Shown: one piece after another, positions 3,749-64,000 of the stretch
How the letters are laid out: every line of letters starts with the position of its first letter
Position numbering within the stretch: the stretch's first letter is position 1
From: Patescibacteria group bacterium
GTDB taxonomy: Bacteria; Patescibacteriota; UBA1384; XYA2-FULL-43-10
Assembly (NCBI GenBank): GCA_041674405.1
Contig: JBAYVT010000004.1
Location: 10,599 to 74,598 of the forward strand
DNA: 64,000 nucleotides
Direction of reading: 5' to 3'
Translations under genes and position numbers: made by a program
Notes under the pieces: generated by a model
Databases searched by the model: none
What the model saw: only the letters and a program-made list of their open reading frames with translations
What the model was told of the DNA's origin: nothing

Positions 3749-4209
3749 CCGGCAAAAATTGTGTGCAGGTTCTAAGTGCGGGATTAATGTTCTCGTACTT
3801 TTTTGAATTTTCATAATTTCATCATCCAATTCCATGATTGTCATTCCGCAACGCTTGCTCCGATATTTTAATATTTTTGATCGCAGCAAAATCTCTCATT
3901 TTATTTTGCACAACAAAATAATGGGCGTGAAATACGCTTTTCCCAAAATAAGTAAATTGTATTCGGATTTACTATCACCGCCCCTCGCAAAATTGCACTC
4001 GATAACACACAAGAAAAGTGAGAAACTCGCTTTAGAACTCGATGGACTCCCTCCATCATGTTTTCATTATATAGTATGCCCAGCTATTGGACAACCAATA
4101 TTATCAAGATTTTATTCAAAAAATTATCTGTAGCGCAACAAAATTGGCAAGAGCAATAAAAACACTTTTAAAAAGCGGAAAACAAGAAATAAGCAAATCT
4201 CTTCGAAAA

Positions 4210-29169: not shown

Positions 29170-29178
29170 TTAGTTAAA

Positions 29179-31377: not shown

Positions 31378-31685
31378 TGCATAAAATTATTTCTATCGCT
31401 ATGGCTGCGGATGACCTTAAGCTGCCGGAGAAATCTGGTGGCACAGAGGCTGATCTTGGCACTGTTCTTGGCTTTCTTGAAAAAATTATTTCTATTGCCA
31501 TGGATATCGCCATAATCCTCGGTGTTATTATGATTTTTGTTTCCGCCTTTATATATGCAAGCTCTTTCGGCGAAGAATCCAAGGCAGAAACTGCCAAAAA
31601 GACTCTTTTGTGGGCAGTTATCGGAACAGGCGTAGCATTCTTGGCAAAGATTATTGTTGACAACCTTGATCTGCTTTTGGGTTAG
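31374..31685 (+). CDS. VirB2/TrbC-like pilin-module protein 2
   Basis: 103 aa with the two-helix module IILGVIMIFVSAFIYASSFGEESKAETAKKTLLWAVIGTGVAFLA. Its start overlaps the stop of the upstream gene. Confidence 0.5.
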   Translation: MMHKIISIAMAADDLKLPEKSGGTEADLGTVLGFLEKIISIAMDIAIILGVIMIFVSAFIYASSFGEESKAETAKKTLLWAVIGTGVAFLAKIIVDNLDLLLG

Positions 31686-31768
31686 CGCATCAATAATGTT
31701 ATTTGACAAGCAAAAAATATGTGCTTAAAATTGTTCTTAGTGGACTTAAATAATAAGACGGAGGGCGA

Positions 31769-32086
31769 ATGAATTTAGTAGAAAAGGCGTACGCGGTTAG
31801 CAAAAACCAGTGGACTGGTTTGCTAAACCCAACAGCCACCACTTCGGGAAACTGGCAAGATATTGTTAATAACGTTATTAACATTGTCTTGATGGTAGCT
31901 GGTGCATTAGCGGTTATTTATCTAATCTATTCTGGCATTCTCTACATTACTGCGGCAGGTAATCCGGATTCAGCCAAAAAGGGTCAGCAAGGCATTATCA
32001 ATGCTGTGATCGGTATTGTGATCATCGTTGCCGCATTCTTCATCGTCAGAGCAGCAATGGGTCTTGCTGGGCAAGCTACAAAATAA
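31769..32086 (+). CDS. VirB2/TrbC-like pilin-module protein 3
   Basis: 105 aa with VINIVLMVAGALAVIYLIYSGILYITAAGNPDSAKKGQQGIINAVIGIVIIVAAFF. It has its own TTGACA...TTAAAAT promoter and a GGAGGG Shine-Dalgarno. Confidence 0.5.
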   Translation: MNLVEKAYAVSKNQWTGLLNPTATTSGNWQDIVNNVINIVLMVAGALAVIYLIYSGILYITAAGNPDSAKKGQQGIINAVIGIVIIVAAFFIVRAAMGLAGQATK

Positions 32087-45291: not shown

Positions 45292-45374
45292 GGAGCGTTC
45301 GATAATAATCCTTAGGGCGCACAGCTGCGATTAGCGCAGGCGTCCAAGGTACTGATTGTCAGGAGGTGGCAGAC

Positions 45375-46295: not shown

Positions 46296-46377
46296 CCGGC
46301 ACCAAGGAGGAGAAGTACCAAAGGAGCGCCCTTAACCGGGCGCTTCCTTTGTGTTTAAATAGGTTATTAGTTTTTAG

Positions 46378-52300: not shown

Positions 52301-53667
52301 AATTGTTGGCCAACCAAGGTTAATACATCACTGAAACTATCTATGTTCATATTCTGTATATCAGAGAAATTCAGCCCGAGGCCAGATAGCATTTCAGTTA
52401 TCGAGTCCTGGGACATTCTCTGTATTGCCGTATTGAAACTGGAATCAATCGCTGCCTTGTCTTTATTGTATCCTTCGGATGTTTGCCACAAGAGCTTAAT
52501 GTTCATTGGAGGCTGGGGGATCTTGGTATCGCTGCCAATGCGGCGTTTTTTGATCAAGGTGCAGCGTATATCATCGATTTGCGAAATATCAAAAGCCTGC
52601 CCTGCATTATGCGCTGAAACTATCCGCGGGCTTTCATTGGTAATAATAAAATCTGAGATCGATTTCCCGTTATCATCAACGAGTTGCCCGCTTAAGAGGC
52701 TATCCTTTTGCTGAATTCCTGCTTCCGCTGCTAGTTCCCCAACGCCAGAATTGTCTTCCTGTGCCTTGTATTCCTCAATTGTTTGTTCTGATTCGGCTTT
52801 TTTCTCACTGTCTTTTTGTTCGGCCACCTCAGATTCCCTGGAGAATTTGGTTACATCGTTTGTATAACTATTTCTAATCTTATCAACCTGAATTCGCCAG
52901 TGCCCGGCACCTCCAATGGGGCTATTTTTTGGACGGACCAGATAATTGAGGGTATCAATAATCCGTTTATCAATTTTGGTATTTATAATACCTTCGACAG
53001 CGGAAACCACATATTGTTTTCCTGAATCATCCTGCATTTGTTGAATCATTGATTCTTGGTCAGTTTCAAATATCTGTGCAAGAATATTTGGGCTTGCGAG
53101 AAGACGCTGTGTTAGATATCCCTGCGTGAAATATTTTGCGGATGCGTTGTCAGCAAATTTTGAAAAGCCTTCCCAGTCACTTTCGCGCATTTGGTTTAGG
53201 CTGCTTATGTCTTTGCCGGTTAAGCGTGAAAGCTCAGACGCATCGCTTTTAAGGTCTGGGAGAACAGAATTGACCAAAGCAATATTTTCCAGATCTTTCT
53301 TGTCGCTTGGGTTTAGAATTATTTTGTCCGACAAAATCAAACCGGTTGAGCTCGCATTTTTATTAAGTGGTGCAGGCGCAACGTATTGGGTGACTGGGGC
53401 TGCATCAGTGTCTGGGGTGGCAATCAACTCATCGGCAGGGAGCGAATCATCAAAATTATCTGTTGCCGGTCCGCTTGCGGGAACTGTATCTTTAGCAGAT
53501 TCTCCGGAGTAATCAGCATCTGACCCAACCTGGTCATTTCCTGAATTAGCATATTGATCCTCTTCGAGTGCCTGCACAATCATGGGTTGGTATGGCAACA
53601 TTACCGAAGTTATGATTACAATCGGTATTACTAGAAAAGAAAACAATTTTATAAATTTATTTGTCAT
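46378..53667 (-). CDS. Giant secreted or surface protein (2429 aa) with no recognised catalytic domain and a recurrent G-[LF]-P-x-G-[TS] motif
   Basis: N-terminal signal/TM MTNKFIKLFSFLVIPIVIITSV. A single uninterrupted frame. Motifs LGLPYGSLTG, LSLPEGVF, LSLPSGPF, LGLPAGSLKSG, LGLPDGTTV, AGLPEGTMA, GLAPGTLS and FGLPPGTSQ recur along the length. Confidence 0.7.
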   Translation of the reverse strand: MTNKFIKLFSFLVIPIVIITSVMLPYQPMIVQALEEDQYANSGNDQVGSDADYSGESAKDTVPASGPATDNFDDSLPADELIATPDTDAAPVTQYVAPAPLNKNASSTGLILSDKIILNPSDKKDLENIALVNSVLPDLKSDASELSRLTGKDISSLNQMRESDWEGFSKFADNASAKYFTQGYLTQRLLASPNILAQIFETDQESMIQQMQDDSGKQYVVSAVEGIINTKIDKRIIDTLNYLVRPKNSPIGGAGHWRIQVDKIRNSYTNDVTKFSRESEVAEQKDSEKKAESEQTIEEYKAQEDNSGVGELAAEAGIQQKDSLLSGQLVDDNGKSISDFIITNESPRIVSAHNAGQAFDISQIDDIRCTLIKKRRIGSDTKIPQPPMNIKLLWQTSEGYNKDKAAIDSSFNTAIQRMSQDSITEMLSGLGLNFSDIQNMNIDSFSDVLTLVGQQFLANTINSGTDSDFWNLDLSGTLQQIGGSIIAEALSLPSGPFMDGSVLNIDGLEESLGRAGIEQALGLPYGSLTGENRADILAQIGRERIIQELSLPEGVFDVQSMNQPSLYSQIGARLIENQFGLASGSFNKSGLNDVLSTIGKNQLSTIIAFPSALDTDFGLGSGTTASLKAGVLSLPNYLQQIAESYITKRADVYKNFNGSYGQNDSIFNLPAGTLASFLGGTISQDQLLNAGIFALSSALENGEQSRTNLSNWFKNPNATFTTDVPTNTAEEPSLQTAQIQVQTYASRLGINQIDFANLFGIGSDPAGTFKKIGQKNLRQALETSGYDDKKTQEANNSNVLENKNVRDQAYYTDRINGIKSTLNTLNQRIQSYTSASSAVSDKLNSTIKAKDDALKQALSVFATAAEKADANPGGGDTTTAAIAIGSIINEASSPVFSGSTDLSEGLSSNDGTFSDYLHQLNGVMQNVQDITKSAYEITTGNEQADFKIEDLHLSDIKFSSIDLGGSKLGLGDLVSFLSGKTTLQDLVSGAASAKLSGSLGISSKALKYASDALALAKNNDQAKNSQSFKDIFFRAIGSAALEEQAGVAGSSILTGSDLSSPKSLADLRDGMVNKLKISRSKANNILASGMGLKGFDLDDLMNNSFSAWSSARSKAIANDVKSKLPAGTTEKFITGQQIGGYDQSEADSDTIRLLATKMHVSEAAIKAFMTHKGGNDNPGVNQIYFVDHNNYLMAAATPDNPCQPIQNVDIAGTTIPDNSYVYFDKAGEHIFSTYSAASEYKSANDDKKINYTDEIANAVYLLSLDISKGASQTGSGVPSYLENYFRSFPPQFSAEGIAAAKDFLKDYGSADKIKAALDTFVSDNTSSKPFSDANLIQFEKILDFGLNISTEESEAVFSRQNKNSSGGQVPLDYLKVSGYNIVDKLAASSVNQSIGTQIGSGRLTADDIFNIFNGNSKSVFAKIGSSILDSSLNLQKGTASGLLNNDNASARKCAATQISTNLIGNSIGTGNLDLASLFTGSSVGSNKAESLLGLPAGSLKSGNILGVAKNVGVVKFAEAFQIPVSQEEISVVNAELKSMGENFFNVNAGNSFYQKLNSVVTYYQALGTNWTGVNDALQKTIDSLVSKGSTGGFNSDTIATLFSQNEPSWNNFVGRLSFLDRNLGLPDGTTVKLLASPTAGSLGEIFPINQYVRQVTDAATQNNLISGLIKGLGLQDGSDRQITDGDINNLITWIKDPGDNMGDLYGTLNNIFSWNLDKKAGLPEGTMATILQDPQTTFNRLISFGAEAFDSSLGLTSVFKTLILGNPDIRCGLSIFGGSGDTESCLKSTIGGQLNTLVGDAFKDLQVNFTIKDIAGNLEYSLKNLLNMDGFDSSTFQQILYGDFRPIQLLGAVMNIPQMYSGKDGLPFNLGIFETYDNAINALNSFKFNFSDLTRLVYGDLTQEIAVRLAAEQQRWNQLTNSSYNWTIAAGNATFNVSTGILSDSTTSSNLGPPNGIINIGLNFPGASDTSSAPILNLQVDNGLRITAGIDTGAAIDSLLNVRIGNTRALDVLNAGQAAIDFATNIWSQGVEYKSIDLALHRLDPNIPADFARSMFQGNDWTRTTTLLEYAEGLIRNDLGIDFLPGGFLGTLQNFISDPNSFDFKSALNGLLGSATADGTLVNTIDNYITGKAASIFGVDFGQGTFGGILGFLQTGSLEGALSIAGNKLQSLADIYGGPSFALNFVGGFVDKTFGLPPGTSQNLYNLYQNFKQAEQAFAASGGSGASGANLANAKAAAISYAARLVLGDTLAKWDEQLGLAPGTLSLLLDATISFLYGNWIQAAIDVAIILYNNLFGVYKVEYLCTADGYYPSIESPPSPDIVDNGNLGVWNGIDSKTRERKIIEAAQYKANKFIQNLYDMPSSTDDQKLVPTQVMTGRWEDVNAWSALTSDTICKNVTGGGQTNGLCNGTKAGMWANPQTTAYTHVGF

Positions 53668-54670
53668 GAAGGGCCCATAGTCCTTTTATAAGTCCGCTAT
53701 TTAATTCGCTGGCAGGCGAATATCTGGCCGGCCGGCCGCGCGACGCTTCGGCTGAAGGATCGTTCAGTACTAAGAATTTGTCGTCTTTGCTCACTCCGAT
53801 AATTACAACCCAGTGTTGGCCGGTAGCCCGAAAGGCTGTAATACCTTGTGCTAAAATTGGATTTCCAGCGGCAATCTCTTTTTTGACCGAGTCTAAATTT
53901 CGAGGGACCTGTGCGAGCTCTTTGTTTAACCCTTTACTGTTTATGTAGCTGACCCAAGTAGCCTTGTCGAGCGCCATGCTGTGGTTTGTGTCAGCCAAAT
54001 ACTGGCCTAAAATATAGGGGGTTATTCCGGAAACTCCATAATAATTTGCAATCATTGCGGATGATGTAATTGCACACGCAGCACCTGCATACGAATTACG
54101 TTTACTGCTCCATCCTGCTGCTTGGCCAGGTTTGTCTCCCCATCTGGGATCGCCTTGATTGAAATACCATTTTGTCGGATCTCCAGGAACCGTTATTGAG
54201 TTGCCAAGAACTTGTTTTATATCGGCGGCATCAGCCTCGCTATAAACCGAAGCATCGATTGGCTGAGATTTTCCATCCATTCCACGATTTGATCCTGACA
54301 TTCTGCCAAAGGCAGGGACGGTTATGAAAAATATTAGGAGAATGACAATGGCAATTGTGGTTAATGTCGGCCAGTTTGCGATCAAAAATGTTTTCAAAAA
54401 ATTTTTGGTCGCGAATTTTAGTGCTTTGTTCGATAAATTATCCAGCGCTTTGCCAATAACCGGTAGTCTCTTTGCTGCCTCCCACGCTCCGCCAGTTGCT
54501 GCATCAAGCGCCTTGTCTTTGCCTGCATCGATTGCTTTATTAAGGACCTTGTTGCCGGTAACGCCGGAACCAGAACCGGATTTTGCCGCCGTTATGGCCG
54601 AGCCTCTCTCGTTTGGGCGCGGAGCCTCTGATTGTCCATCTAAATTTTCGTTATTAAATTCTTCTGGCAT
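53657..54670 (-). CDS. Membrane-anchored papain-like cysteine peptidase (Peptidase_C39_2-like), candidate cell-wall hydrolase
   Basis: Cytoplasmic N-terminus, one TM (WPTLTTIAIVILLIFFITVPAF), then YFNQGDPRWGDKPG...YAGAACAITSSAMIANYYG with a candidate catalytic Cys. Start taken at MPEEF. Confidence 0.55.
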   Translation of the reverse strand: MPEEFNNENLDGQSEAPRPNERGSAITAAKSGSGSGVTGNKVLNKAIDAGKDKALDAATGGAWEAAKRLPVIGKALDNLSNKALKFATKNFLKTFLIANWPTLTTIAIVILLIFFITVPAFGRMSGSNRGMDGKSQPIDASVYSEADAADIKQVLGNSITVPGDPTKWYFNQGDPRWGDKPGQAAGWSSKRNSYAGAACAITSSAMIANYYGVSGITPYILGQYLADTNHSMALDKATWVSYINSKGLNKELAQVPRNLDSVKKEIAAGNPILAQGITAFRATGQHWVVIIGVSKDDKFLVLNDPSAEASRGRPARYSPASELNSGLIKGLWALHDK

Positions 54671-54672
54671 AT

Positions 54673-55821
54673 TTAGCTCCAATTTCCTCCATATTGAAAA
54701 TGCATTGCGTCGCATACTCCCTTAAATTTTGCTCCCCAAAAAAACCCGTTTTTTTCAAAAGCATCTGAAACAGCTTTGGGAATATCATGGGGGCACCCTG
54801 CTGGGTCACGAGGCCTTCCGGATCGTCTTCCATTGGGATTTTGGCCTGGATTAATATCACATGCTGCGCCAGTTGAGTGTGGGCTAAGAAGGCTGGGGCT
54901 ATTCACATTGTGCCTCCAGTTATAACATCCAATATCTTTGATCTTGTATGTTGATCCACTACTTTTGATATCATTTACAACATTTTGGAGGGCAGGAACT
55001 ATATACTTATTTACTCGAATTGAGTGGCCGAGAAAATTGAAATTAACTAGCTGCTTTTCTACTTCATTTTGTGTTTTTGAATGAAGAGCAGACTGAGCCT
55101 GTGATAATGACTTCCAGATTCCCACCTGTCCACTGCTTCCCGGACCATAACCACGAAAGTCTAAAGATCCGGAGACAAAATTATTAACTGGATTGGGGCT
55201 GGAACATTGTATTTGCCCAGGAACCAATTGTTTTAGAAAAGTGAAAAATATTTCCCTGTCTTCCGAGACATTATTTCTTGAATCAGATTCCGGCGTATAT
55301 GCATCGATCCACCAAGTTTGAATCGCGGTTCCGGCAGGGCGATTTCCATAAGGCGCAACATTATCTCGTGCTTTTGTCAGGGTTTTTACATGTTTTGTGA
55401 GCTGGTCCTCGAAGGATGTGCTACCAGGAGCGACGCCAAACGCATAGCTTGGTTTGCCAAAGTTTTGCTCCTTGCCCCATGTGGCGATTGCTACAGCCGG
55501 ATTTACACCAGCGGCCCTTGTGGCCTGAAGGATCTGATCAATACGCTCCTTGGAAGGCATGATACTTCTTCCGCCGAGTTTGGAGATTACAGAAGCAGAA
55601 TCTGGAATTTCAGATGTGGAAGGACTTGTCCAGTTCTGATCTGGCATAACACATTCACCACCACCCCCCATAGCCAAGGGGGTTTCACCGGTGTTTTTGC
55701 GCATTGTTGCAAATGTCATGCCAGCAGCTGTGCCGGCGACGAGGAATGTCAAAACTGCGCTGATTCCAATTGCAATCACCACATTTCCTCCGGATCGTGA
55801 ATTTAATTTGGCTCCCTCCAT
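54673..55821 (-). CDS. Membrane-anchored peptidoglycan hydrolase with a C-terminal M15 (VanY-like) zinc peptidase domain
   Basis: N-terminal TM. SPHSTGAACDI (SxHxxGxAxD) and FFWGAKFKGVCDAMHFQY at the C-terminus are typical of M15 D,D-peptidases. Confidence 0.6.
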   Translation of the reverse strand: MEGAKLNSRSGGNVVIAIGISAVLTFLVAGTAAGMTFATMRKNTGETPLAMGGGGECVMPDQNWTSPSTSEIPDSASVISKLGGRSIMPSKERIDQILQATRAAGVNPAVAIATWGKEQNFGKPSYAFGVAPGSTSFEDQLTKHVKTLTKARDNVAPYGNRPAGTAIQTWWIDAYTPESDSRNNVSEDREIFFTFLKQLVPGQIQCSSPNPVNNFVSGSLDFRGYGPGSSGQVGIWKSLSQAQSALHSKTQNEVEKQLVNFNFLGHSIRVNKYIVPALQNVVNDIKSSGSTYKIKDIGCYNWRHNVNSPSLLSPHSTGAACDINPGQNPNGRRSGRPRDPAGCPHDIPKAVSDAFEKNGFFWGAKFKGVCDAMHFQYGGNWS

Positions 55822-55832
55822 TTATCCCTCGC

Positions 55833-57104
55833 CTACAAACCTGTTTGATACAAATGGTTATTCGAAACAAAGTATAGAGTTTTGTTGTCCTTCGAAATCG
55901 AAAGTTCTGTAATATATACGCCCGAAAGTGGAATCGAGAAACCGATTTTTTGTTTAGAATCTACATTAAATTTAAACAAACTTTCTTGCTGTGTCTCCGG
56001 GTCATAGGTAGCGACGGCGATATTGGAATTATCAATCCAAACAATTTTGGAGATTATCGCTTTTATTCCAAGATCTCTGGCGTTTGATCCGTCGCTATTC
56101 ATAACGGATACCTCTGATTTAACTGGATTTGAAGGGTCATCCGAGGTGGTTGTGTAGATAATTTTATTACCATCTGGCGAATATAAGGCTTCTTGGTTGT
56201 TGCCAGTGTCGGTAATATTTTTTACAGCCATCGTGTAAGCATTCAAAAGATAAATTTTGTTGCCGCTTGCATCGGTATTGCGTGGGATAATAAGCAGCCA
56301 TTCTGACGAAGGCGACCATCTAAGATATGGGTTTGTAATGCCGTAATCTTTTAGGTTGAGGGCACGTTTGATGTTTGTGTTTGCCTTGTCCGCGAAAATG
56401 ATTGATTGTTCGCCCGAAGATGGGGCATATGAATAAGCAATCTTGGAATCGTCTGGTGCCCAGGCGACATTACCGATATCGTCCCCAAATTTAACTTCCT
56501 GTTGGCTGACAAAATTATATTTTTGAAAATCAAAAAAGTATGCGGCGCTTCCTTTCTGAAAGAGGGCAGCATCTTTCTTGGGTCCCCAGACAATATTCGT
56601 AATTCCGGAAAAACCAGGATTTGATATCTGTCTTACATAGTCTACACTGCGGTCAGATTTGAACTGGATTTTGTAAAGTGCTGATTTGCCGCTTCCTAGA
56701 AACATAAGCGAGTCATCTTCATCACCGGTTGTGATATTATCTACCGGCAAATCTTTAATGTTACCAAGTGGCAGGACAATCGGTTTTGGTACCTCGACAA
56801 GATCAACTTGCACAGATTTACTGCGCCCGCCACTCAGAGTCAAATTCATAATTTGCGTTACGTATCCGTTTTTCTTGACAGTCAGAACATGATCGCCGGG
56901 TTTTGTGGTAATCTTGGCCGTGCCGTCAGGCAGGGTGCTTACAGGGGCGCTGTCAAGCAAAATGTTGGCGTCTTGCGGGGTAAATTTGACCGACAGAGTA
57001 GATCGGTTCAGGAGAATTATTAGGACCACCGCTGCAACCACTAAAATTCCCAAAAGCAGATACGCTTTTGATCTTAAAAAATTCATTTCGTCTGTGATTT
57101 TCAT
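55833..57104 (-). CDS. Membrane-anchored TolB-like beta-propeller protein with a PEGA-like domain
   Basis: A TM helix, then LTVKKNGYVTQIMNLTLSGG (PEGA-like) and repeated ...SPDG/KIAY... propeller blades. The start, taken at MKITDE, abuts the VirB4 stop. Confidence 0.5.
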   Translation of the reverse strand: MKITDEMNFLRSKAYLLLGILVVAAVVLIILLNRSTLSVKFTPQDANILLDSAPVSTLPDGTAKITTKPGDHVLTVKKNGYVTQIMNLTLSGGRSKSVQVDLVEVPKPIVLPLGNIKDLPVDNITTGDEDDSLMFLGSGKSALYKIQFKSDRSVDYVRQISNPGFSGITNIVWGPKKDAALFQKGSAAYFFDFQKYNFVSQQEVKFGDDIGNVAWAPDDSKIAYSYAPSSGEQSIIFADKANTNIKRALNLKDYGITNPYLRWSPSSEWLLIIPRNTDASGNKIYLLNAYTMAVKNITDTGNNQEALYSPDGNKIIYTTTSDDPSNPVKSEVSVMNSDGSNARDLGIKAIISKIVWIDNSNIAVATYDPETQQESLFKFNVDSKQKIGFSIPLSGVYITELSISKDNKTLYFVSNNHLYQTGL

Positions 57105-57105
57105 A

Positions 57106-58965
57106 TTATTCTCCCAATAATTGTTTCGGATCCGTGGTGATGATTTGATCTTCGGCATATGATGCAACAATTTTTATGGCGACATGGTTTAAACCGGCGA
57201 AAAACAATCCTTCGCCTACATCCGATTGCAATAGAATATATTTTTCCCCCTCCGTAAGGCCGAAAGTCTCTGCGATTACATCGATTGACGAAGTGGATTG
57301 CTTCATGAGCATCTGCATAGAAGAGTTGGCAACCACTGCTTTTCCATATCTTGAACCTAAGAAATCTTCCACATCTTGGCTGATCACGGTAACTCCAAGG
57401 TAGTATTTGCGCGCCCGTTTTACTAAGCCGTGTAAGAATTTGGCAGAATCTTCGTATTGCATCATCCACCAAGCTTCATCAATAACCATCAAGCGGCGGC
57501 GCATATCCATGCGGATTTTGGTCCAGATATAATTTAATATCAGATACATCGCGATCGGCCGAAGTTGCTCTTCGAGATCGCGGACCGAAAACACCACAAA
57601 ACCAGGCTTGAGTTCAAAGTTGGTAGTCTGGTTGAACATGCCAGCAAACGTGCCTTCGGTATATTTAGACAACCGCGCCCTCAAAGACTCGCTGCTGCCC
57701 ATATTGGACAGAACATTGTAGAAATCTTGCATCACTGGCGGCTCATTTTTTTGGCTCTCTGGGTCGGTAGTAATGTCTTTGATCGCATATGTCTCATACA
57801 AACCCTTATCTACCAGAGCGTCTTCTTCTGGGGAAAGTCCACCAACCATAAGATTGATGAGTCCGTGCAACGAAGAGATGGTTGACCTTAGAACATCATC
57901 TCCCGATTCTTCTCCTGATTCGGAATGGGGAAGATCAAAAGGGTTAATGCGATGCTCGGCATTTAAAGAAATGCTTAGATAACTGCCCCCGACGGCCTCA
58001 CAGAGCGACTTATATTCATTTTCTGGGTCAACTACGACCACATCTGTTCCCGACATCAAATAGCGCAAAATTTCAAGCTTAACTGCGTAAGATTTACCAG
58101 AGCCGGACTTTGCAAAAACCACTGAATTGGCATTTTCCAGATCAAATCTGTCAAAAATTATCAAAGAATTATTGTGGCGATTGATCCCGTACAATATTCC
58201 GTCATCCTGGGTAAGCTCAGTAGATGTAAACGGGAAGGTTGATGAGAGTGATCCAGTATCAAGGTTGCGAAGAACACCGATTTCATCAGTCATCAGAGGA
58301 AGGGTGGTGTTGAAACCCTGTTCCATCTGCAGGAGTGTTTGTTTGGAGTAAACTAGCATGCCGCCGAGAGTAGATTCAAGCTGTTCTGTCAGGGTGTTGA
58401 GATCGTCTGGGGTTTTTCCATAAATTGTGAAATATAATCCGAACTGGAACAACCTCATCTCACCTCGTTGTAACACGTCACGCAAGGACTCAACATCTCC
58501 TAGTGCTGTTTCCATTTCCGGATCTCTTGGGGCACCCTTCTCTTGCTCGATCATCATCGTTGACTCAAGTTTTCCGACTTGTTTTTTAAGGTCATACATG
58601 ACATCTTTTGACTCGAGCGGGTGAATATACATCCCAATATCCATCGTAAGATCATAATCAATGATTGGGGAAAGCCAATTTGTATCTAGGTAACGCGGAT
58701 AGGTAAATACGAATAAAGTTTTGATAAAATACTCACCCAGTTGCAGATAATTCGGTGTCACAACAAAAGCTGCCGGAGCGATGAGGTCACGCACCGAAGA
58801 TAATCCCTGCGATACGGCATCGATTGTTTGGTCGGTTGCCTTATCGGCCCAGAATTTAGGATCCGAAGCTTGTTTTTCTCGCTTTGCAATGTTTTTTTGG
58901 GCAAGAGCTCTTGGGTCCTGGGTTGCTATTTGTTTTTGATCGTTATCAGCCATTTTACCAGCCAA
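57106..58965 (-). CDS. VirB4/TraE/PrgJ-family type IV secretion ATPase (body and ATPase domain)
   Basis: VVFAKSGSGKSYAV Walker A, LMVIDEAWWMM Walker B, and the upstream VTPNYLQLGEYFIKTLFVFTYPRYLDTNWLSPII region typical of Gram-positive VirB4 homologs. Confidence 0.8.
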   Translation of the reverse strand: MAGKMADNDQKQIATQDPRALAQKNIAKREKQASDPKFWADKATDQTIDAVSQGLSSVRDLIAPAAFVVTPNYLQLGEYFIKTLFVFTYPRYLDTNWLSPIIDYDLTMDIGMYIHPLESKDVMYDLKKQVGKLESTMMIEQEKGAPRDPEMETALGDVESLRDVLQRGEMRLFQFGLYFTIYGKTPDDLNTLTEQLESTLGGMLVYSKQTLLQMEQGFNTTLPLMTDEIGVLRNLDTGSLSSTFPFTSTELTQDDGILYGINRHNNSLIIFDRFDLENANSVVFAKSGSGKSYAVKLEILRYLMSGTDVVVVDPENEYKSLCEAVGGSYLSISLNAEHRINPFDLPHSESGEESGDDVLRSTISSLHGLINLMVGGLSPEEDALVDKGLYETYAIKDITTDPESQKNEPPVMQDFYNVLSNMGSSESLRARLSKYTEGTFAGMFNQTTNFELKPGFVVFSVRDLEEQLRPIAMYLILNYIWTKIRMDMRRRLMVIDEAWWMMQYEDSAKFLHGLVKRARKYYLGVTVISQDVEDFLGSRYGKAVVANSSMQMLMKQSTSSIDVIAETFGLTEGEKYILLQSDVGEGLFFAGLNHVAIKIVASYAEDQIITTDPKQLLGE

Positions 58966-60064
58966 AATCTTTATTTAATGCAGGATCGCTATCTGGATCA
59001 TTTGTGGCTTTCGGGTTCACTGGTGGATTGTTAGGTTGGGGAGGTGTTTGCCTGTTCTGTGGCGGTTCATTAATACTTGTGCCGGATTCTTGTGATTGCG
59101 CTTTAGTTTGGGTTTCCGCAGTCTGGCTTTGTGGTGTGGCCGGCTTCTCTTGCGCCTCTGCTGCCGGTGGAGCCGGTGCGGTGCTCGGTGCGTTGGAAGA
59201 ATTTGTGTTTGCGGATACCGTATTGTTTGAAGTCGTCGGCGCTTTCATGTCTCTTTCTGCGTTTTTTTCTATCGCCTGTTGTCTTTCTTCCTGTTCCTTT
59301 TTCTGCTGGGCATTAACTATTTCTGTGTTATCGATTGTAGATTCATCTTCAATCTGGCTGGGCTCGAGAGCCTCGTCTTCTTTGTCTTTTGTGTGTGTAA
59401 CAAAAGCTGAGGCGAAAGTATTTGCTTCTTCTGCAAGCCTTTCCTTGCCGGCAACCTCGGGATTGTACGTGCTGTAAAGAAGCTCAATCACTTCTTGTGT
59501 ATTTAGTTGCTTGCAATGTAATCCGATCGAGCCGAGGCCCTGGGCGACGGTAGTAGCGCGCTGCTTTAATTCGGTTGTGTATCGGGCATAGTCTTCTTCG
59601 GAAACCCTGAGCTGGGCAGTTTCATTATTCTTTTTGAAAAGCTTATCCAATATTCCGCCGTTATTTGTGACCAATGGCTGATAACCGACGGTTACGTAAA
59701 AAGTTTTTTTCATAATATTGGCTAGGTTGATAAGCTGAGAGACGAAGTCGACATAATCTTCTGTTTGCAACTTCAAAAGCTCGTTTTTCTGTTTTTCCGC
59801 CAATTTCTTAATCTTGTTTAAATATGGGGTCAAATCCAGTTTTTTTGATGAAATCAAAATCTCAATCGGAAAATGAAGCGAATTTAAGAAGCTTTGGTAA
59901 TTAAAAATAATGCTATTTTGCTCTTGCTCGCTCTTTAAGTCGAAATTTATAGCAGCAACAGACATGACAATGCGGTATTGCCCGTTTCTCAGAATAACTA
60001 TCCCGTCGCGAATGCCTGCGACCAAAACGTTTTCTTGGGTTGTGGGAGCTTTGACGGTAGCCAT
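58955..60064 (-). CDS. T4SS-associated protein resembling the N-terminal domain of VirB4 (about 230 aa) followed by a Pro/Gln/Thr-rich disordered tail; possibly the 5' part of a split or frameshifted virB4
   Basis: GIRDGIVILRNGQYRIVMSVAAINFDLKSEQEQNSIIFNYQSFLNSLHFPIEILISSKKLDLTPYL fits the VirB4 N-terminal pattern. It overlaps the ATPase ORF by 11 nt in another frame. Confidence 0.45.
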   Translation of the reverse strand: MATVKAPTTQENVLVAGIRDGIVILRNGQYRIVMSVAAINFDLKSEQEQNSIIFNYQSFLNSLHFPIEILISSKKLDLTPYLNKIKKLAEKQKNELLKLQTEDYVDFVSQLINLANIMKKTFYVTVGYQPLVTNNGGILDKLFKKNNETAQLRVSEEDYARYTTELKQRATTVAQGLGSIGLHCKQLNTQEVIELLYSTYNPEVAGKERLAEEANTFASAFVTHTKDKEDEALEPSQIEDESTIDNTEIVNAQQKKEQEERQQAIEKNAERDMKAPTTSNNTVSANTNSSNAPSTAPAPPAAEAQEKPATPQSQTAETQTKAQSQESGTSINEPPQNRQTPPQPNNPPVNPKATNDPDSDPALNKDFGW

Positions 60065-60066
60065 GC

Positions 60067-60516
60067 TTACCTCGTTGCAATATTATTATTTGAAGAATCC
60101 AGCGATTTTGCCATTCTTTCCATCTGCTCGCGGGTTATGTGTTTGGATTCGACATGCGTAGCCGATTCCTTTTCTGGATTTTTGTAAACTTCCACGTCAA
60201 ACCCTGATTCTTCTCTTTGCCAAACGCGCATCCTTGGTTTGCCCATAAAAACAAACAAAGAAGCAAGAAAATGCAAAAAAGGCCGTTCGTTAATTTTAAG
60301 AAATATCAGAGCCAATGTAAAAAGTGCAACCATTATAGCTAAAAACAAGCCAAACATGTTTGGTATCGACATATAGCAGACATACGCCAATCCGCCGCCA
60401 ACGACAGCATAGACAAACTGAAGCATTGTCAGCGGTCCCAAAATGCGATCCTGCATATCTATATTTTGCGGAACCTTGTAACGCAATTTCCCTCGCTCCC
60501 TCCTTTTGGAGTTCAA
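60067..60516 (-). CDS. PrgI-family (VirB3-like) small membrane protein
   Basis: YKVPQNIDMQDRILGPLTMLQFVYAVVGGGLAYVCY followed by a second TM helix, the defining PrgI pattern. It sits directly upstream of virB4, as in Gram-positive conjugation loci. Confidence 0.65.
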   Translation of the reverse strand: MNSKRRERGKLRYKVPQNIDMQDRILGPLTMLQFVYAVVGGGLAYVCYMSIPNMFGLFLAIMVALFTLALIFLKINERPFLHFLASLFVFMGKPRMRVWQREESGFDVEVYKNPEKESATHVESKHITREQMERMAKSLDSSNNNIATR

Positions 60517-60586
60517 AGGATCGCTAAAAATCTCAAATCAATTGTAACACAATTGATTTGGAAAAAATAGGAAAAATTTTGACCAG

Positions 60587-62077
60587 TTATTCTATCGGTG
60601 AAAGAATGTTCGTTTCATTGGCAAGAGCGCCGAGAAATGCACCGCCAACTGCTAGCAGGCCCGTGCTAGATGCCTGGGATTCCGGAGTTGGATTTTGTTT
60701 GTCGAAACCGCCCCAGCCATCATAATATCCCATTGAATCCAAATCCAGCCCATCAAAATCTTCGCCTAAATGGCCTTTTTCTGATTGGACGATTCTCTTT
60801 ATGGTGTTATAAAAAACTAAGTACGATTCGATTGCGCGGGAGATCCCGGGATGTTCCGTCCTTAACTTTTCTATTGAAAAATTTCCGCCGGCGATACCTT
60901 CGGCAATTTCGGCATATTTTGTACTAATTTCTCCTGATTGATCTGTATCCGATTCACTAATGCCGAGTTCTGAACTGGAGAAACGGCTGAAACTGCCGGG
61001 ATCGAGCTTTTTAAGGCATACCTCTAAAAAGCTCAAGAAGCTTCCATCGCTCTGGAGATAAATGGCAGTGTAATCGGTTACAATTTCTTCTGCTGCCATG
61101 ATTTCGCGCGACTTTGTGAACTTTTCTTCCGACCCCCATTTTGCTTTTTCTGTCGGTGAGAGTGAATTATATTCCGATTTTTCCAAGCTCTTAATCACGT
61201 TTCTGACGTGTTGCGGCTGAAAATCAATATAATCTTTTGCATTTCGAATGATTTCTTTTGCCTCTCTAAGCGAAATCTCGATCGGAGAATTGGCATTTTC
61301 TTCATCTGCTTCGGATTCTTTGTGTTTTGCGACAGCGACTATTCCGTGGGATATCTCGTGGTCGATCATTTGAACAAAATCCAAGCTCAGGATTTTTCCT
61401 TCGGAAGTTGCAAAATTATCTTTCAGGGCAGATCTCGAGAGTTTGATAACCCCTCCCCCAAAAGACATAATCCCTTCATAACCAGCCGAGGCTCGAGATT
61501 CGTCCTCTAAACTATCGGATATTTCAACATTTTGAACGAGTGTACAGACATCATTAGCGGTAAGGTGCCCATTGATTATCGGGAGAGATAGGGCATAAAG
61601 GATCTCTGTTTTTTTACTCAATACTCCCGAATACTCAGGGTTTTTTGATAACTCGGAAATAGCGGCATCTGAATCTTGAAACAGCGCTTCTGAACGTGCG
61701 ATAAAAATCGCCGTCTCAGTGAGAGCGCTACTAGATGGCGCAGACTCTCCGTATCGCTCTTTTAATATCGCATAAATTTTTTCAATCAGGTAAGAATTCA
61801 GATTTTCGTCCGATATATGATTGAGGAGAATTGCAAAAACTTCTCTCTTGTCCAGGGAGTGGCTTTTATTTTCGTGAGTCATTCTTTTCGTTGCTTCGAG
61901 AATAGAGGGACGATTCTGCTCGGTAATTTCAACTTCACCGGAATGATCTATCTCCGGTTCTGCCCCTTCCTGGCCTTCGTTGCCCCCTTCTGGTTGTTCT
62001 CTTGTTTGATCCGCTTCCGAAATTTCTGGCGATTGTCCAGGTGGGCCAGCAGAAGGGTTTGGGGCGTCAGTGGCCAT
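60587..62077 (-). CDS. Hypothetical protein with an HExxH motif (candidate zinc metallopeptidase), an acidic low-complexity N-terminus and a hydrophobic C-terminal segment
   Basis: MIDHEISHGIV contains HEISH; no signal peptide; the C-terminus TGLLAVGGAFLGALA is hydrophobic. Confidence 0.45.
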   Translation of the reverse strand: MATDAPNPSAGPPGQSPEISEADQTREQPEGGNEGQEGAEPEIDHSGEVEITEQNRPSILEATKRMTHENKSHSLDKREVFAILLNHISDENLNSYLIEKIYAILKERYGESAPSSSALTETAIFIARSEALFQDSDAAISELSKNPEYSGVLSKKTEILYALSLPIINGHLTANDVCTLVQNVEISDSLEDESRASAGYEGIMSFGGGVIKLSRSALKDNFATSEGKILSLDFVQMIDHEISHGIVAVAKHKESEADEENANSPIEISLREAKEIIRNAKDYIDFQPQHVRNVIKSLEKSEYNSLSPTEKAKWGSEEKFTKSREIMAAEEIVTDYTAIYLQSDGSFLSFLEVCLKKLDPGSFSRFSSSELGISESDTDQSGEISTKYAEIAEGIAGGNFSIEKLRTEHPGISRAIESYLVFYNTIKRIVQSEKGHLGEDFDGLDLDSMGYYDGWGGFDKQNPTPESQASSTGLLAVGGAFLGALANETNILSPIE

Positions 62078-62108
62078 GACAGCCTTTCTTTTTTATCGTC
62101 AAATTATC

Positions 62109-63992
62109 TTATTCGGGATTTGCGCTTGGTGGTTCTGCGGGGGGAGTCGGAGGGGGAGTCGGTGTTGAATGGGTCTCAGGGCGTGGGGTAGACGGCGCCT
62201 CTACGGTAGTATTGTTGTTGATCACAGTTGTGTTCTGAACTGGGTTTGGCCGAACCGCATCAACGGCCCTTGCAGGTGATACGCGTGAAGATGCTTTTGC
62301 TGTGGCGCTGCCGATTTCGCGAGCAAGAGATTTTTGGAATCTTTCACTCATTAGTGTTGATGCGAGCGAATCCCCGCCGGAAACCCCCGAAGCAGCGGCA
62401 ACGCTTCCCAGGATGGAACTTGCCTGCATCGGTGAGTACGAAACAGCTGCTCCTCCTCGAGCTGCAGCGGTGGCTTGTGCAACCTGGTTCACATGTTGGG
62501 TCAACGCTTCGATATGATCGGAACCTTCGGCAAAGCCATCGCCAACCGAAATATTCTCAAATTGAGAAGCTAATTGCTTGGTTTGGTCGGCCATGCTCTG
62601 CATCGATAATCTGGCGGAGGCAGTAGCTTCGGCAGCAGTTCTTAGTTCGGTCTGTTTGGAAGTCTGAAATTGTTTAAGAGAGTCTGACCAGGCTCGCCCT
62701 TCTGTTGAAGTCAGTTGTCCGGAAGCAGCCATTGATCTTGCGTTTACGGCTGCCTGCTGAACCTGTTGAAACGTTGAAGCTAACTTTTGTTTGGCGGCGG
62801 GATCGCTCGTGCTAATTTTGGGTACTCCCATCTTACTAGCAATTTTGGCCGCCTCTTCAATATCACCAGCCTGAAGCTTGCTTGCGCCTGCGGCAGCATC
62901 CTGAGAAATCAATGCCAGCTTAGACCCTAGACCTTGTGGGGAAACACCGCTCATTTGGCCACGGATTAGCCTCAAACCTGCAATTTGGTCTTCGATTTGT
63001 TGGGCTCCTGCTTCAACCTCTTCGTTAACCATGGAATCACGAGCCTTCCTAACATCTTCAAAGTGTTTTCGGAGTTCTTGTTGCGCTCCAGGACTCATTG
63101 CAGCAACATCACCACCCAATCTTTGAGCCAGTTGGTCAAAATTTTCATTGCTGTGCATTGCGGCACGAGAGACCTGATCAGCCTGTGCACCAGCAAGAGC
63201 CCTAATTCCCTGGCTTGCACCGCTGATAGATGCAGCTTCTGTAGTAGCTTGGGCAGCTGCCTCAATTTCTTCACCAACAGGAGAAGAAAATCCGGAAGCA
63301 TCCATGTTTCTGTTTCTTTTTCGCAAAGCTCCGGTTGTAGGATCTCTGGACTCGTCGGTTCGGAATCTCCCTTTTTCTTTACTTACAGCATCAATACTTT
63401 CCCCATTAAAAAATTTCAAGGCTTCATCATGTCCGTCGGCACTGGAATTTCCAGCCCTTCTGGTAAGTTCCTTATACTTCGCCATATATTCCCTTGATTG
63501 CGCCCAACTCATCTTTTTGTCTCTAAATAATTTTCCGTTTTTTCCTGGAGTTGCAACTTCGCCTGTTTCAGGATCGATCTCCATCGCTCCGGCCAACTTA
63601 GAAACTTCTTCATATTGCCAGGTTTTTTGTTCATCGAGAGAATCAGCCCTTAATGCGGCCCTTACTCGACCCTGGGCTCCCTTTGGCAATTTTCCGCTCA
63701 TCATAAGATCAAAGTACCTCTGGTTGAGTGCCTCTTTCTCGTACTTAGCTCTCACGTCCTGCGGAATTTGCTTAGCGGCTTTTCTATTCATCATCATCTT
63801 ACCCAAACGAGTCAGCTGAAAATCTCCTTTTTTATCATGATATCCGATCATCCTGTTCTGGGCTCTGGTTTTGACATTGTCATATTTTTCCTTCGCAAAA
63901 TCACCGGCGTATTTGGCAGCCCGACCGCCTGTCTTATTCCATCCCCATTTGCCAAGGTTGTTCCATGCTGTCATCACGCCTTTACCCATCAT
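62109..63992 (-). CDS. Ala/Gln-rich predicted coiled-coil protein with a Pro/Thr-rich C-terminal tail; the N-terminus may extend beyond the window
   Basis: 627 aa of AQ-rich heptad-like sequence, with no TM and no catalytic motifs. The first Met lies 8 nt from the window end. Confidence 0.45.
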   Translation of the reverse strand: MMGKGVMTAWNNLGKWGWNKTGGRAAKYAGDFAKEKYDNVKTRAQNRMIGYHDKKGDFQLTRLGKMMMNRKAAKQIPQDVRAKYEKEALNQRYFDLMMSGKLPKGAQGRVRAALRADSLDEQKTWQYEEVSKLAGAMEIDPETGEVATPGKNGKLFRDKKMSWAQSREYMAKYKELTRRAGNSSADGHDEALKFFNGESIDAVSKEKGRFRTDESRDPTTGALRKRNRNMDASGFSSPVGEEIEAAAQATTEAASISGASQGIRALAGAQADQVSRAAMHSNENFDQLAQRLGGDVAAMSPGAQQELRKHFEDVRKARDSMVNEEVEAGAQQIEDQIAGLRLIRGQMSGVSPQGLGSKLALISQDAAAGASKLQAGDIEEAAKIASKMGVPKISTSDPAAKQKLASTFQQVQQAAVNARSMAASGQLTSTEGRAWSDSLKQFQTSKQTELRTAAEATASARLSMQSMADQTKQLASQFENISVGDGFAEGSDHIEALTQHVNQVAQATAAARGGAAVSYSPMQASSILGSVAAASGVSGGDSLASTLMSERFQKSLAREIGSATAKASSRVSPARAVDAVRPNPVQNTTVINNNTTVEAPSTPRPETHSTPTPPPTPPAEPPSANPE

Positions 63993-64000
63993 TTGTGGAG

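What the first reader, a model, noticed from the sequence alone, without database searches (positions are those of the whole stretch)
53657..64000. Gram-positive-type type IV secretion/conjugation-like cluster in a low-GC reduced genome, next to oriC and running against replication
A co-directional minus-strand block encodes a PrgI(VirB3)-like protein, a VirB4-like ATPase, a TolB-like propeller protein, and two separate membrane-anchored peptidoglycan hydrolases (M15 peptidase and C39-like papain peptidase). The two hydrolases together mimic the bifunctional CwlT/PrgK-type wall hydrolases of Gram-positive conjugative elements. The block also holds an HExxH protein and a long coiled-coil protein, and it abuts a 2429-aa giant protein. 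No VirD4, VirB6 or relaxase lies inside the window, so the system either continues beyond 64000 or is a non-conjugative secretion or attachment apparatus. Right of oriC every housekeeping gene is plus-strand while this block is minus-strand, which suggests a horizontally acquired module.
Basis: partly seen in the sequence, partly recalled or inferred. Interest (0 to 1): 0.75.

Follow-up and report, generated by a model that had tools for sequence, protein, structure and literature searches.

The report
Patescibacterial type IV secretion gene cluster
This is the chromosomal type IV secretion system that ultra-small Patescibacteria (here a Berkelbacteria-like genome) keep next to their replication origin; the system is already described and is essential in a cultured relative, so this is a new example of a known system whose cargo is still unknown.

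Summary
HMMs confirm PrgI/VirB3, a VirB4 ATPase, a PD40 propeller protein, an M15_4 peptidase and a C39-like cysteine peptidase. All lie in one tightly packed minus-strand block about 4 kb from a DnaA-box cluster.

- VirB4 is split into a TrsD-like N-terminal protein (58955-60064) and the ATPase.
- The last ORF (62109-64000) is not a free coiled-coil protein. It runs off the window and is the hydrophilic tail of a 904-aa VirB6-like protein, so VirB6 is present.
- Four VirB2-like pilin genes lie left of oriC (28810-32086).
- The propeller protein is PEGA plus PD40, not TolB.
- GC is about 44%, and codon usage matches the housekeeping genes (r=0.97). Recent horizontal acquisition is therefore not supported.

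The closest VirB4 relatives (73-82% identity) are Berkelbacteria and other Patescibacteria MAGs. Gene order and orientation match the Southlakia epibionticum T4SS (SEML1_0006-0019), which is essential for epibiotic growth, and the phylum-wide survey of 2025. No relaxase or coupling protein lies within the window or 8 kb beyond it.

Lineage-specific extras are a 2429-aa surface protein that is always syntenic in close relatives, and a conserved cytoplasmic HExxH protein. Neither could be assigned a fold.

Verdict: new member of a known kind; modest interest.

The parts
62109..64000 (-). C-terminal hydrophilic extension (629 aa within the window) of an 'extended' VirB6/TrbL-like polytopic membrane protein. 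The full gene is 904 aa and would reach window-equivalent coordinate 64823.
   Evidence: There is no stop codon upstream of the ATG at 63992. It aligns from its first residue to residue 290 onward of the 910-aa L011 protein (E 1e-23). The N-terminus of that L011 protein hits PF04610 TrbL at 32.6 bits against a cut-off of 25.9. On the real contig the gene is 904 aa with PF19590 TrbL_3.
60587..62077 (-). Soluble 496-aa protein with a conserved HExxH motif (HEISH at residue 240). It has no signal peptide or TM segment. It is a putative cytoplasmic zincin-like protein of unknown role.
   Evidence: No Pfam, NCBIfam or PDB hit. No TM segment. HE[IMVA][SAG]H is conserved in 8 of 8 full homologues at the same position between VirB6 and PrgI. 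The only hit in the 5.8-billion-protein database is itself, NCBI WC080_03285.
60067..60486 (-). PrgI/VirB3-like two-TM protein (139 aa by the gene caller; the longest ORF runs to 60516).
   Evidence: PF12666, 1.3e-9, above cut-off. Two hydrophobic segments. Syntenic in 60 of 80 related loci.
58955..60064 (-). TrsD-like protein, the detached N-terminal domain of VirB4. It carries a disordered P/Q/T-rich tail of about 150 aa.
   Evidence: NCBIfam TrsD NF041427 at 2e-8. It matches positions 11-121 of the CD1110 VirB4 profile, while the ATPase ORF matches positions 176-733. Precomputed PF26593 TraC-like. Found in 67 of 80 loci directly upstream of VirB4.
57106..58953 (-). VirB4 ATPase (615 aa), the signature motor of type IV secretion systems.
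   Evidence: NF045971 at 7e-107, above cut-off. PF19044 at 6e-32. PDB 4AG5 at 1.5e-46. Walker A and B are intact. It is 54-83% identical to 80 Patescibacteria loci.
55833..57104 (-). Membrane-anchored extracytoplasmic PEGA domain plus PD40 beta-propeller protein (423 aa).
   Evidence: PD40 at 1.6e-8, PEGA at 1.2e-3. The TolB equivalog is far below cut-off. One N-terminal TM segment. Syntenic in 41 of 80 loci. S. epibionticum has an essential PEGA protein, SEML1_0005, in the same block.
54673..55821 (-). Membrane-anchored two-domain wall hydrolase. The C-terminal domain is an M15_4 (LAS) metallopeptidase. The N-terminal domain (about residues 45-215) has an invariant Glu and may be lysozyme- or transglycosylase-like; this is unproven.
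   Evidence: PF13539 at 6.7e-15. SPHSTGAACD at 313 and DAMH at 371. N-domain alignment A5 has invariant E in NPAV.IA.WG.EQ.F. There are only weak SLT_2 (0.18) and MltB_2 (0.087) hints. The AF2 single-sequence model failed.
53657..54670 (-). C39-like papain-fold cysteine peptidase (337 aa). It has a cytoplasmic N-terminus, one TM segment and an extracytoplasmic catalytic domain.
   Evidence: PF13529 at 1.5e-10 and PF12385 at 4e-7. TM segment at residues 109-142 of the long ORF. GAAC, GQH and LND motifs are present.
46378..53667 (-). Giant 2429-aa surface protein with an N-terminal anchor and the rest extracytoplasmic. It has a conserved N-proximal domain (residues about 215-420) with invariant GGAGH and S-x-H-x2-G-x-A-x-D motifs, then scattered LGLPxG(S/T) motifs. 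It is the last gene of the block.
   Evidence: It overlaps the C39 gene by 11 nt. It has only one hydrophobic segment. A homologue lies 4-6 kb downstream of VirB4 in 24 of 24 loci with VirB4 at 66.8% identity or more. The domain occurs in only 102 clusters out of 1.84 billion representatives, almost all 1400-3100 aa long. No Pfam or PDB hit. hhalign to M15_4 aligns only the motif. The AF2 model had pLDDT 54.
46323..46346 (.). GC-rich hairpin followed by a T-run, between the convergent plus-strand (dnaA side) and minus-strand (T4SS) units. It is a likely terminator marking the end of the block.
   Evidence: 9-bp stem with 7 G-C pairs. Overall, the pattern scan found no more terminator-like sites than chance, so this is only a positional argument.
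28810..32086 (+). Array of four VirB2-like T4SS pilin genes (119 aa, 732 aa, 103 aa, 105 aa). The 732-aa member is an extracellular domain of about 640 aa fused to a C-terminal pilin module.
   Evidence: PF18895 above cut-off in all four: 2.8e-7, 3.4e-10, 2.4e-9 and 5.7e-12. They are paralogous by tblastn. Pilin arrays are a described hallmark of the Patescibacterial T4SS (PMC12102498, PMC10633639).
42085..42441 (.). Cluster of DnaA boxes in the dnaA-dnaN spacer (probable oriC). This is context for the 'next to oriC' claim.
   Evidence: 7 of the 21 window-wide matches (at most 1 mismatch) fall in these 360 bp. GC3 skew changes sign here.

Best explanation
[quoted passage not shown] It derives from the monoderm (MPF_FATA) conjugation machinery.

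Shown:
- Cytoplasmic-membrane channel parts: an extended VirB6, PrgI/VirB3 and a VirB4 motor split into TrsD plus ATPase.
- These are co-transcribed with four membrane-anchored extracytoplasmic proteins: a PEGA/PD40 propeller, an M15 metallopeptidase, a C39-like cysteine peptidase and a 2429-aa surface protein.
- A VirB2-like pilin array lies on the other side of oriC.

Inferred:
- VirB4 energises assembly of a pilus or conduit made of the VirB2-like pilins through the VirB6/VirB3 pore.
- The two peptidases, and possibly a lysozyme-like domain, cut peptidoglycan cross-links so that the structure can cross the cell's own wall and perhaps the host's wall.
- The propeller and the giant protein scaffold or tether the apparatus at the epibiont-host contact.

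No relaxase or coupling protein accompanies the system. It most likely does not conjugate DNA. It more likely moves proteins to, or macromolecules or nutrients from, a host bacterium. The cargo and the direction of transport are unknown.
For: - Component identities come from curated HMMs and PDB.
- The genes are tightly packed and co-directional, with gaps or overlaps from -11 to +70 nt.
- Best VirB4 matches are Berkelbacteria, Saccharibacteria and other Patescibacteria MAGs at 54-83% identity. PrgI-TrsD-VirB4 order is kept in 60-67 of 80 loci, and dnaA/dnaN/recF are adjacent in several.
- S. epibionticum has the same layout: dnaA, dnaN, recF, then a minus-strand PEGA protein, a lysozyme plus cysteine protease, a DD-peptidase-fold protein, VirB4, a TrsD-like protein, PrgI and VirB6-like proteins, then pilins. 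Almost all are scored essential by Tn-seq (PMC10633639).
- The phylum-wide survey reports TrsD, PrgI, VirB6 and VirB2 arrays, scarcity of relaxases and proximity to dnaA (PMC12102498).
- No relaxase or T4CP lies in the window ORFs scanned or 10 kb upstream on the native contig, which instead holds BacA, PAP2, a XerC/D-like recombinase and a Mur ligase.
- Composition is native.
Against: - Function is inferred from homology and from one cultured relative in a different class. Nothing here shows transport, cargo or direction.
- A VirB8-like component was not found. The 216-aa upstream protein looks TPR-like, and the 630-aa one has no hits.
- Only about 72 kb of a 158-kb contig was examined, so a distant VirD4 or relaxase cannot be excluded. 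The survey notes that VirD4 homologues are often encoded far from virB4.
- The roles assigned to the propeller, the giant protein and the HExxH protein rest on synteny and topology only.
Confidence: 0.88

Rival explanations
1. It is a recently acquired integrative conjugative element of Gram-positive type. Its relaxase, coupling protein and integrase would lie outside the window.
For: - VirB4, TrsD and PrgI match conjugation families (CD1110, TrsD, PrgI).
- The block is on the opposite strand to its neighbours.
- A tyrosine recombinase lies 7 kb beyond the window end.
Against: - The recombinase scores as XerC/XerD (239 bits) and sits among BacA, PAP2 and Mur ligase genes. BacA and PAP2 recur upstream of the cluster in relatives.
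- GC, GC3 and codon usage cannot be told apart from the housekeeping genes.
- The same cluster sits beside dnaA/recF in distant Patescibacteria.
- No relaxase or T4CP lies within about 72 kb.
- The literature finds relaxases in only about 100 Patescibacteria genomes.
Confidence: 0.04
2. It is a DNA or nucleotide uptake machine, like ComB of Helicobacter or Ced of archaea, that imports host nucleic acids to feed a genome lacking nucleotide synthesis.
For: - The cluster has VirB4, VirB6, VirB3 and pilins but no coupling protein or relaxase, as ComB does.
- NCBIfam gives weak CedB (1.6e-11) and CedD hits on the ATPase domain.
- The idea is raised in PMC11665869.
Against: - The CedB/CedD scores are far below cut-off and reflect only the shared ATPase fold.
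- No DNA-binding or nuclease component was identified in the block.
- This is a sub-hypothesis about cargo within the best explanation, not a different kind of system.
Confidence: 0.15
3. It is an ordinary cell-wall remodelling or recycling operon that happens to lie beside an ATPase.
For: Two peptidoglycan peptidase families and a PD40 propeller lie in a row. BacA and PAP2, which act in undecaprenyl-phosphate metabolism, lie upstream on the contig.
Against: VirB4 scores above the curated equivalog cut-off. PrgI, TrsD and VirB6 are adjacent, and pilins lie nearby. The peptidases keep their place downstream of VirB4 across genomes.
Confidence: 0.01

Closest known systems
T4SS of Candidatus Southlakia epibionticum ML1 (SEML1_0006-0019; Wang et al. 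2023, PMC10633639) and the 'Patescibacteria clade' T4SS surveyed by Quinonero-Coronel et al. 2025 (PMC12102498)
   Same: - Same position: immediately after dnaA-dnaN-recF and convergent with them.
- Same core order: VirB6-like, PrgI, TrsD-like, VirB4.
- Wall hydrolases (a DD-peptidase/LAS fold and a cysteine protease) and a PEGA protein lie downstream of VirB4.
- A VirB2-like pilin array is present.
- No relaxase or coupling protein lies nearby.
   Different: - Different class (Berkelbacteria-like, not Saccharimonadia).
- The hydrolases are arranged differently. Here a 382-aa M15_4 protein and a separate 337-aa C39-like protein replace the 643-aa lysozyme x2 plus Cys-protease and the 1113-aa DD-peptidase proteins.
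- The PEGA domain is fused to a PD40 propeller.
- An extra HExxH protein sits between VirB6 and PrgI.
- A 2429-aa surface protein ends the operon.
- The pilin array is about 25 kb away across oriC and includes a 732-aa pilin fusion.
- No NTF2-like (VirB8-fold) protein was found.
MPF_FATA conjugative T4SS of monoderm plasmids and ICEs (pGO1 TrsC/D/E, pIP501, pCF10 PrgI/PrgJ/PrgK, CTn2 CD1110, ICEBs1 CwlT)
   Same: - The VirB4 is of the CD1110 type.
- A separate TrsD protein is present, as in pGO1.
- A PrgI-type VirB3 and a VirB6-like channel protein are present.
- Membrane-anchored peptidoglycan hydrolases with two chemistries are encoded next to the motor.
- There are no outer-membrane core components.
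   Different: - No relaxase, oriT or VirD4/TcpA coupling protein was found.
- VirB2-like pilins are present, which monoderm conjugation systems lack.
- The hydrolase domains are M15 and C39-like, not SLT/muramidase plus CHAP/NlpC-P60.
- The cluster is chromosomal, native in composition and conserved in position.
- No PrgB-type adhesin is present.
Relaxase- or T4CP-less T4SSs used for other tasks (Bordetella Ptl toxin exporter, Helicobacter ComB DNA uptake)
   Same: A VirB4-driven apparatus with pilin-like subunits that works without a coupling protein or relaxase.
   Different: Those are diderm systems with VirB7/9/10 outer-membrane cores. No homology beyond the shared core was tested here.

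Membership tests
Patescibacteria-clade T4SS (MPF_FATA-derived) | VirB4 ATPase of the monoderm (CD1110/MPF_FATA-like) type, closest to Patescibacteria VirB4s | tested here: met
   NF045971 at 358.5 bits against a cut-off of 325. It is 54-83% identical to 80 Patescibacteria loci. No formal phylogeny was built.
Patescibacteria-clade T4SS (MPF_FATA-derived) | TrsD-like protein encoded directly upstream of virB4 | tested here: met
   NF041427 at 2e-8, which is below the curated cut-off of 200 bits. It matches the N-terminal part of the CD1110 profile. PF26593 is precomputed. Synteny holds in 67 of 80 loci.
Patescibacteria-clade T4SS (MPF_FATA-derived) | PrgI/VirB3-like membrane protein next to virB4 | tested here: met
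   PF12666 at 38.9 bits against a cut-off of 27.
Patescibacteria-clade T4SS (MPF_FATA-derived) | VirB6/TrbL-like polytopic protein in the cluster | tested here: met
   A 904-aa gene with PF19590 lies on the native contig. The L011 orthologue hits PF04610 above cut-off. Only its C-terminal tail lies in the window.
Patescibacteria-clade T4SS (MPF_FATA-derived) | Array of divergent VirB2-like pilins | tested here: met
   Four PF18895 genes at 28810-32086. They are not adjacent to virB4; they lie about 25 kb away.
Patescibacteria-clade T4SS (MPF_FATA-derived) | No relaxase or coupling protein associated with the cluster | tested here: met
   None among the ORFs scanned in the window, which cover every listed ORF of 400 aa or more, or in the 10 kb upstream. 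The rest of the genome was not examined.
Patescibacteria-clade T4SS (MPF_FATA-derived) | Chromosomal location near dnaA/oriC | tested here: met
   dnaA is at 40696, the DnaA-box cluster at 42085-42441 and the block starts at 46378.
Patescibacteria-clade T4SS (MPF_FATA-derived) | Required for epibiotic growth | not testable with these tools
   Known only from Tn-seq in S. epibionticum (PMC10633639).
Conjugative MPF_FATA T4SS (ICE or plasmid) | Relaxase (MOB) and oriT | tested here: not met
   No relaxase family hit in the proteins scanned from the window or the upstream flank. The search was limited to about 72 kb.
Conjugative MPF_FATA T4SS (ICE or plasmid) | Type IV coupling protein (VirD4 or TcpA) | tested here: not met
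   Apart from VirB4, the only ORFs of about 500 aa or more with ATPase hits are PilB and DnaE.
Conjugative MPF_FATA T4SS (ICE or plasmid) | VirB8-fold (NTF2-like) bitopic protein (PrgL/TraM/TcpC) | tested here: inconclusive
   The candidate bitopic proteins upstream (216 aa, TPR-like; 630 aa) have no hits. No usable structure models were obtained.
Conjugative MPF_FATA T4SS (ICE or plasmid) | VirB1-type bifunctional wall hydrolase (glycosidase plus peptidase) | tested here: inconclusive
   The peptidase domains are confirmed. A glycosidase domain is only hinted at (SLT_2 at 0.18, MltB_2 at 0.087). The AF2 model failed.
TolB (Tol-Pal system) | Full-length match to the TolB equivalog, within a Tol-Pal gene context | tested here: not met
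   TIGR02800 scores 37.2 bits against a cut-off of 343. No tol or pal genes are present, and the organism is a monoderm.
LAS/M15 metallopeptidase (for the giant protein's N-proximal domain) | H-x6-D plus a third His zinc ligand in a Hedgehog/DD-peptidase fold | tested here: inconclusive
   An invariant S-x-H-x2-G-x-A-x-D motif is present, but hhalign probability is 7% over 19 columns. VanY and Extensin-like_C hints appear in 4 of 29 members. No downstream His is present (WQ replaces the MH of the DxMH motif). The AF2 model had pLDDT 54.

The most novel reading that the evidence does not exclude
In the Berkelbacteria-type version of the system, the strictly syntenic surface protein of about 2400 aa may be the host-contact or wall-breaching part of the apparatus. 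Alternatively it may be a T4SS-dependent surface fibre. It belongs to a family of only about 100 sequence clusters. It has an invariant LAS-like H-x6-D motif and scattered LGLPxG motifs. The conserved cytoplasmic HExxH protein may be a dedicated processing or loading factor. Under this reading the cluster would hold components with no counterpart in any described T4SS.
Probability: 0.2. Interest if true: 0.55.

Novelty: new member of a known kind. Interest (0 to 1): 0.3.

Why it matters
The Patescibacterial T4SS is the first type IV system shown to be essential for its bearer. Its cargo is unknown, and it is thought to underlie how a very large branch of bacteria lives off other bacteria.

This window adds a Berkelbacteria-class example and shows which parts are constant: the VirB6, PrgI, TrsD and VirB4 core, a LAS-type peptidase, a cysteine peptidase, a PEGA module, pilins, and the position beside oriC. 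It also shows which parts are lineage-specific: the PD40 fusion, the HExxH protein and the giant surface protein. That helps in choosing targets, but it does not answer what the machine transports.

Tried and rejected
- The search for homologous proteins on the giant protein's N-domain found nothing, both as an alignment and as a single sequence (8000 candidates, none scored). The exact protein does exist in the representative library (P0001), so this is a limit of the tool, not evidence of absence.
- The same tool on the HExxH protein returned only the protein itself.
- AF2 of the giant N-domain with a 21-sequence MSA gave pLDDT 54. A single-sequence model of the M15 protein gave pLDDT 34. 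Both are unusable, so no fold search was run.
- PDB sequence or profile searches found nothing for the giant domain, the M15 N-domain, the HExxH protein, the C39 protein and the 630-aa upstream protein.
- Pfam on diverse members of the giant family gave only noise.
- Promoter and terminator pattern scans were at chance level.
- I briefly suspected that window 1-4200 (GC 0.50, no listed ORFs, no Rfam hit) was a large non-coding region. It is a minus-strand ORF of at least 1298 aa that runs off the window edge.
- The 216-aa upstream bitopic protein was considered as a VirB8 candidate and rejected, because it looks TPR-like.
- The XerC/D-like recombinase was considered as an ICE integrase and rejected.

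Full report
**What is in the sequence**

Between 46378 and the window end there are nine co-directional minus-strand genes. Gaps or overlaps run from -11 to +70 nt. Curated profiles identify the following:
- PrgI/VirB3: PF12666, 1.3e-9.
- A VirB4 ATPase: PF19044 at 6e-32. NCBIfam CD1110-family VirB4 at 7e-107, 358.5 bits against a cut-off of 325. PDB 4AG5 at 1.5e-46.
- A PD40 propeller with a PEGA domain.
- A Peptidase_M15_4 protein (6.7e-15).
- A Peptidase_C39_2 protein (1.5e-10).

Catalytic and nucleotide-binding motifs are intact. Hydropathy shows that M15, C39, PD40 and the giant protein each have a single membrane anchor with the bulk outside the cell. PrgI has two TM segments. VirB4, the 369-aa protein and the HExxH protein are soluble.

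**Refinements to the anatomy**

1. The 369-aa ORF upstream of VirB4 (58955-60064) is TrsD-like. It matches positions 11-121 of the CD1110 VirB4 profile, while the ATPase ORF matches 176-733. VirB4 is therefore split, as in pGO1 and as reported for most Patescibacteria.
2. The 627-aa 'coiled-coil' ORF has no stop codon upstream. From its first residue it aligns with residue 290 onward of a 910-aa protein in a related locus. The N-terminus of that protein is a TrbL/VirB6 domain, PF04610 above cut-off.
3. I recovered the native contig through the HExxH protein, which is NCBI WC080_03285 from a 'Patescibacteria group bacterium'. There the gene is 904 aa with PF19590 TrbL_3. VirB6 is therefore present, of the 'extended' kind, and is cut by the window edge.
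4. Upstream on that contig lie a 630-aa and a 216-aa bitopic protein, then BacA, PAP2, a XerC/D-like recombinase and a Mur ligase. No VirD4 or relaxase is there.
5. Four VirB2-like pilin genes (PF18895, all above cut-off) lie at 28810-32086, on the other side of the origin. One is a 732-aa fusion.

**Origin, strand and composition**

Seven DnaA boxes cluster in the dnaA-dnaN spacer (42085-42441). GC3 skew on the + strand switches sign there.

The inference of horizontal acquisition is not supported:
- GC (0.41-0.49) and GC3 match the housekeeping genes.
- Synonymous codon usage correlates at r=0.97 with housekeeping genes. Two halves of the housekeeping set correlate at 0.94.
- The only compositional outlier nearby is a 309-aa ORF with GC3 of 0.79, between recF and the block.

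**Who it belongs to and how conserved it is**

The 80 best genomic matches to VirB4 (54-83% identity) are Berkelbacteria, Saccharibacteria and other Patescibacteria MAGs.
- PrgI-TrsD-VirB4 is kept in 60-67 of the 80 loci. The PD40 protein is found in 41 and the giant protein in 31. recF, dnaN or dnaA appear beside the cluster in four loci.
- Every one of the 24 loci with VirB4 at 66.8% identity or more, and enough flanking DNA, has the giant homologue 4-6 kb downstream. More distant genomes have other 800-1400-aa ORFs there.

**Comparison with the literature**

The arrangement is the one published for Southlakia epibionticum. That genome has dnaA, dnaN and recF, followed on the minus strand by:
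- a PEGA protein;
- a lysozyme x2 plus cysteine-protease protein;
- a 1113-aa protein with a Hedgehog/DD-peptidase domain;
- VirB4, a TrsD-like protein and PrgI;
- two VirB6-like proteins.

A pilin array follows. Nearly all of these genes are essential by Tn-seq.

A 2025 survey of the phylum describes the Patescibacteria VirB4 clade, its MPF_FATA ancestry, TrsD, PrgI, VirB6 and VirB2 arrays, the near absence of relaxases and the proximity to dnaA. A T4SS review lists these systems as a new monoderm class. McLean et al. noted the region in Saccharibacteria and other CPR in 2020. The finding is thus a new member of a known kind.

**Mechanism**

Shown: a membrane translocon (VirB6, VirB3, split VirB4), pilins, two wall peptidases and two large surface proteins.

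Inferred:
- VirB4 drives assembly of a pilin-based conduit.
- The M15 (LAS) and C39-like peptidases open peptidoglycan, either the cell's own or the host's.
- The PEGA/PD40 protein and the giant protein act as scaffold or tether at the contact site.

The lack of a relaxase and coupling protein argues for protein export or macromolecule import rather than conjugation. The field regards the cargo as unknown, and nothing here resolves it.

**Unresolved parts**

The giant protein has no Pfam or PDB match.
- Its conserved N-proximal domain occurs in only 102 clusters among 1.84 billion representatives, nearly all in 1400-3100-aa proteins.
- It carries invariant GGAGH and S-x-H-x2-G-x-A-x-D motifs.
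- The second motif aligns with the zinc-binding motif of the neighbouring M15_4 domain, but only over 19 columns at 7% probability. There are weak VanY and Extensin-like_C hints in 4 of 29 members.
- AF2 with a 21-sequence MSA gave pLDDT 54. The LAS assignment therefore remains a lead only.

The HExxH protein keeps its motif in all full homologues but has no detectable relatives in the profile libraries or PDB.

The M15 protein's N-terminal domain has an invariant Glu in a lysozyme-like context. Support is only sub-threshold SLT_2 and MltB_2 hints.

**Verdict**

The claims of VirB6 absence, TolB similarity and recent horizontal transfer are wrong. The system is a new member of a known kind. 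Interest is about 0.3, mainly for the lineage-specific accessory proteins.

Noticed in passing
window 28810-32086 (+): Four tandem VirB2-like T4SS pilin genes (PF18895). One is a 732-aa protein in which an extracellular domain of about 640 aa, with no family hit, is fused to a C-terminal pilin module. Such a large pilin fusion was not mentioned in the papers I read.
   Followed up: partly
window 45366-46295 (+): A 309-aa ORF with GC 0.63 and GC3 0.79 in a genome of about 0.43 GC. It has an N-terminal hydrophobic segment and a C-terminal zinc ribbon, and lies between recF and the end of the T4SS block. It has no homologue in the 80 related loci. It is the only clear compositional outlier near the cluster.
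   Followed up: partly
window 1-3895 (-): A minus-strand ORF of at least 1298 aa that runs off the left edge, so the ORF tool does not list it. It has an N-terminal TM segment, Gly-rich repeats and GC of about 0.50. It is another very large surface protein.
   Followed up: partly
window 60534-60560 (-): A 12-bp perfect AT-rich inverted repeat (CAAATCAATTGT..ACAATTGATTTG) in the 70-nt gap between the HExxH gene and prgI. It could be an operator or an attenuator.
   Followed up: no
window 32097-33761 (-): A PilB/T2SSE-type ATPase (PF00437, 1.9e-123) lies convergent with and abutting the T4SS pilin array. Type IV pilus and T4SS genes are therefore neighbours here.
   Followed up: no
window 58955-59410 (C-terminal third of the TrsD-like gene): The TrsD-like protein carries a low-complexity tail of about 150 aa, rich in P, Q, T and A, that aligns poorly or not at all with its homologues in related loci.
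   Followed up: no
L081 4680-7239 (window-equivalent about 64839-67398, beyond the window): Two conserved bitopic membrane proteins (216 aa, TPR-like; 630 aa, no hits) lie between BacA and VirB6. They recur at that position in relatives and may be further T4SS components.
   Followed up: partly
window 46378-53667 (-): LGLPxG(S/T)-type motifs are scattered through the giant protein, at residues 490-670, 1490-1725 and 2190-2260. They may mark a repeated structural unit.
   Followed up: no
window 12684-13988 (-): A 434-aa DNA methyltransferase-like ORF (N6_N4_Mtase and UPF0020 hits) sits among housekeeping genes. No partner restriction enzyme was looked for.
   Followed up: no
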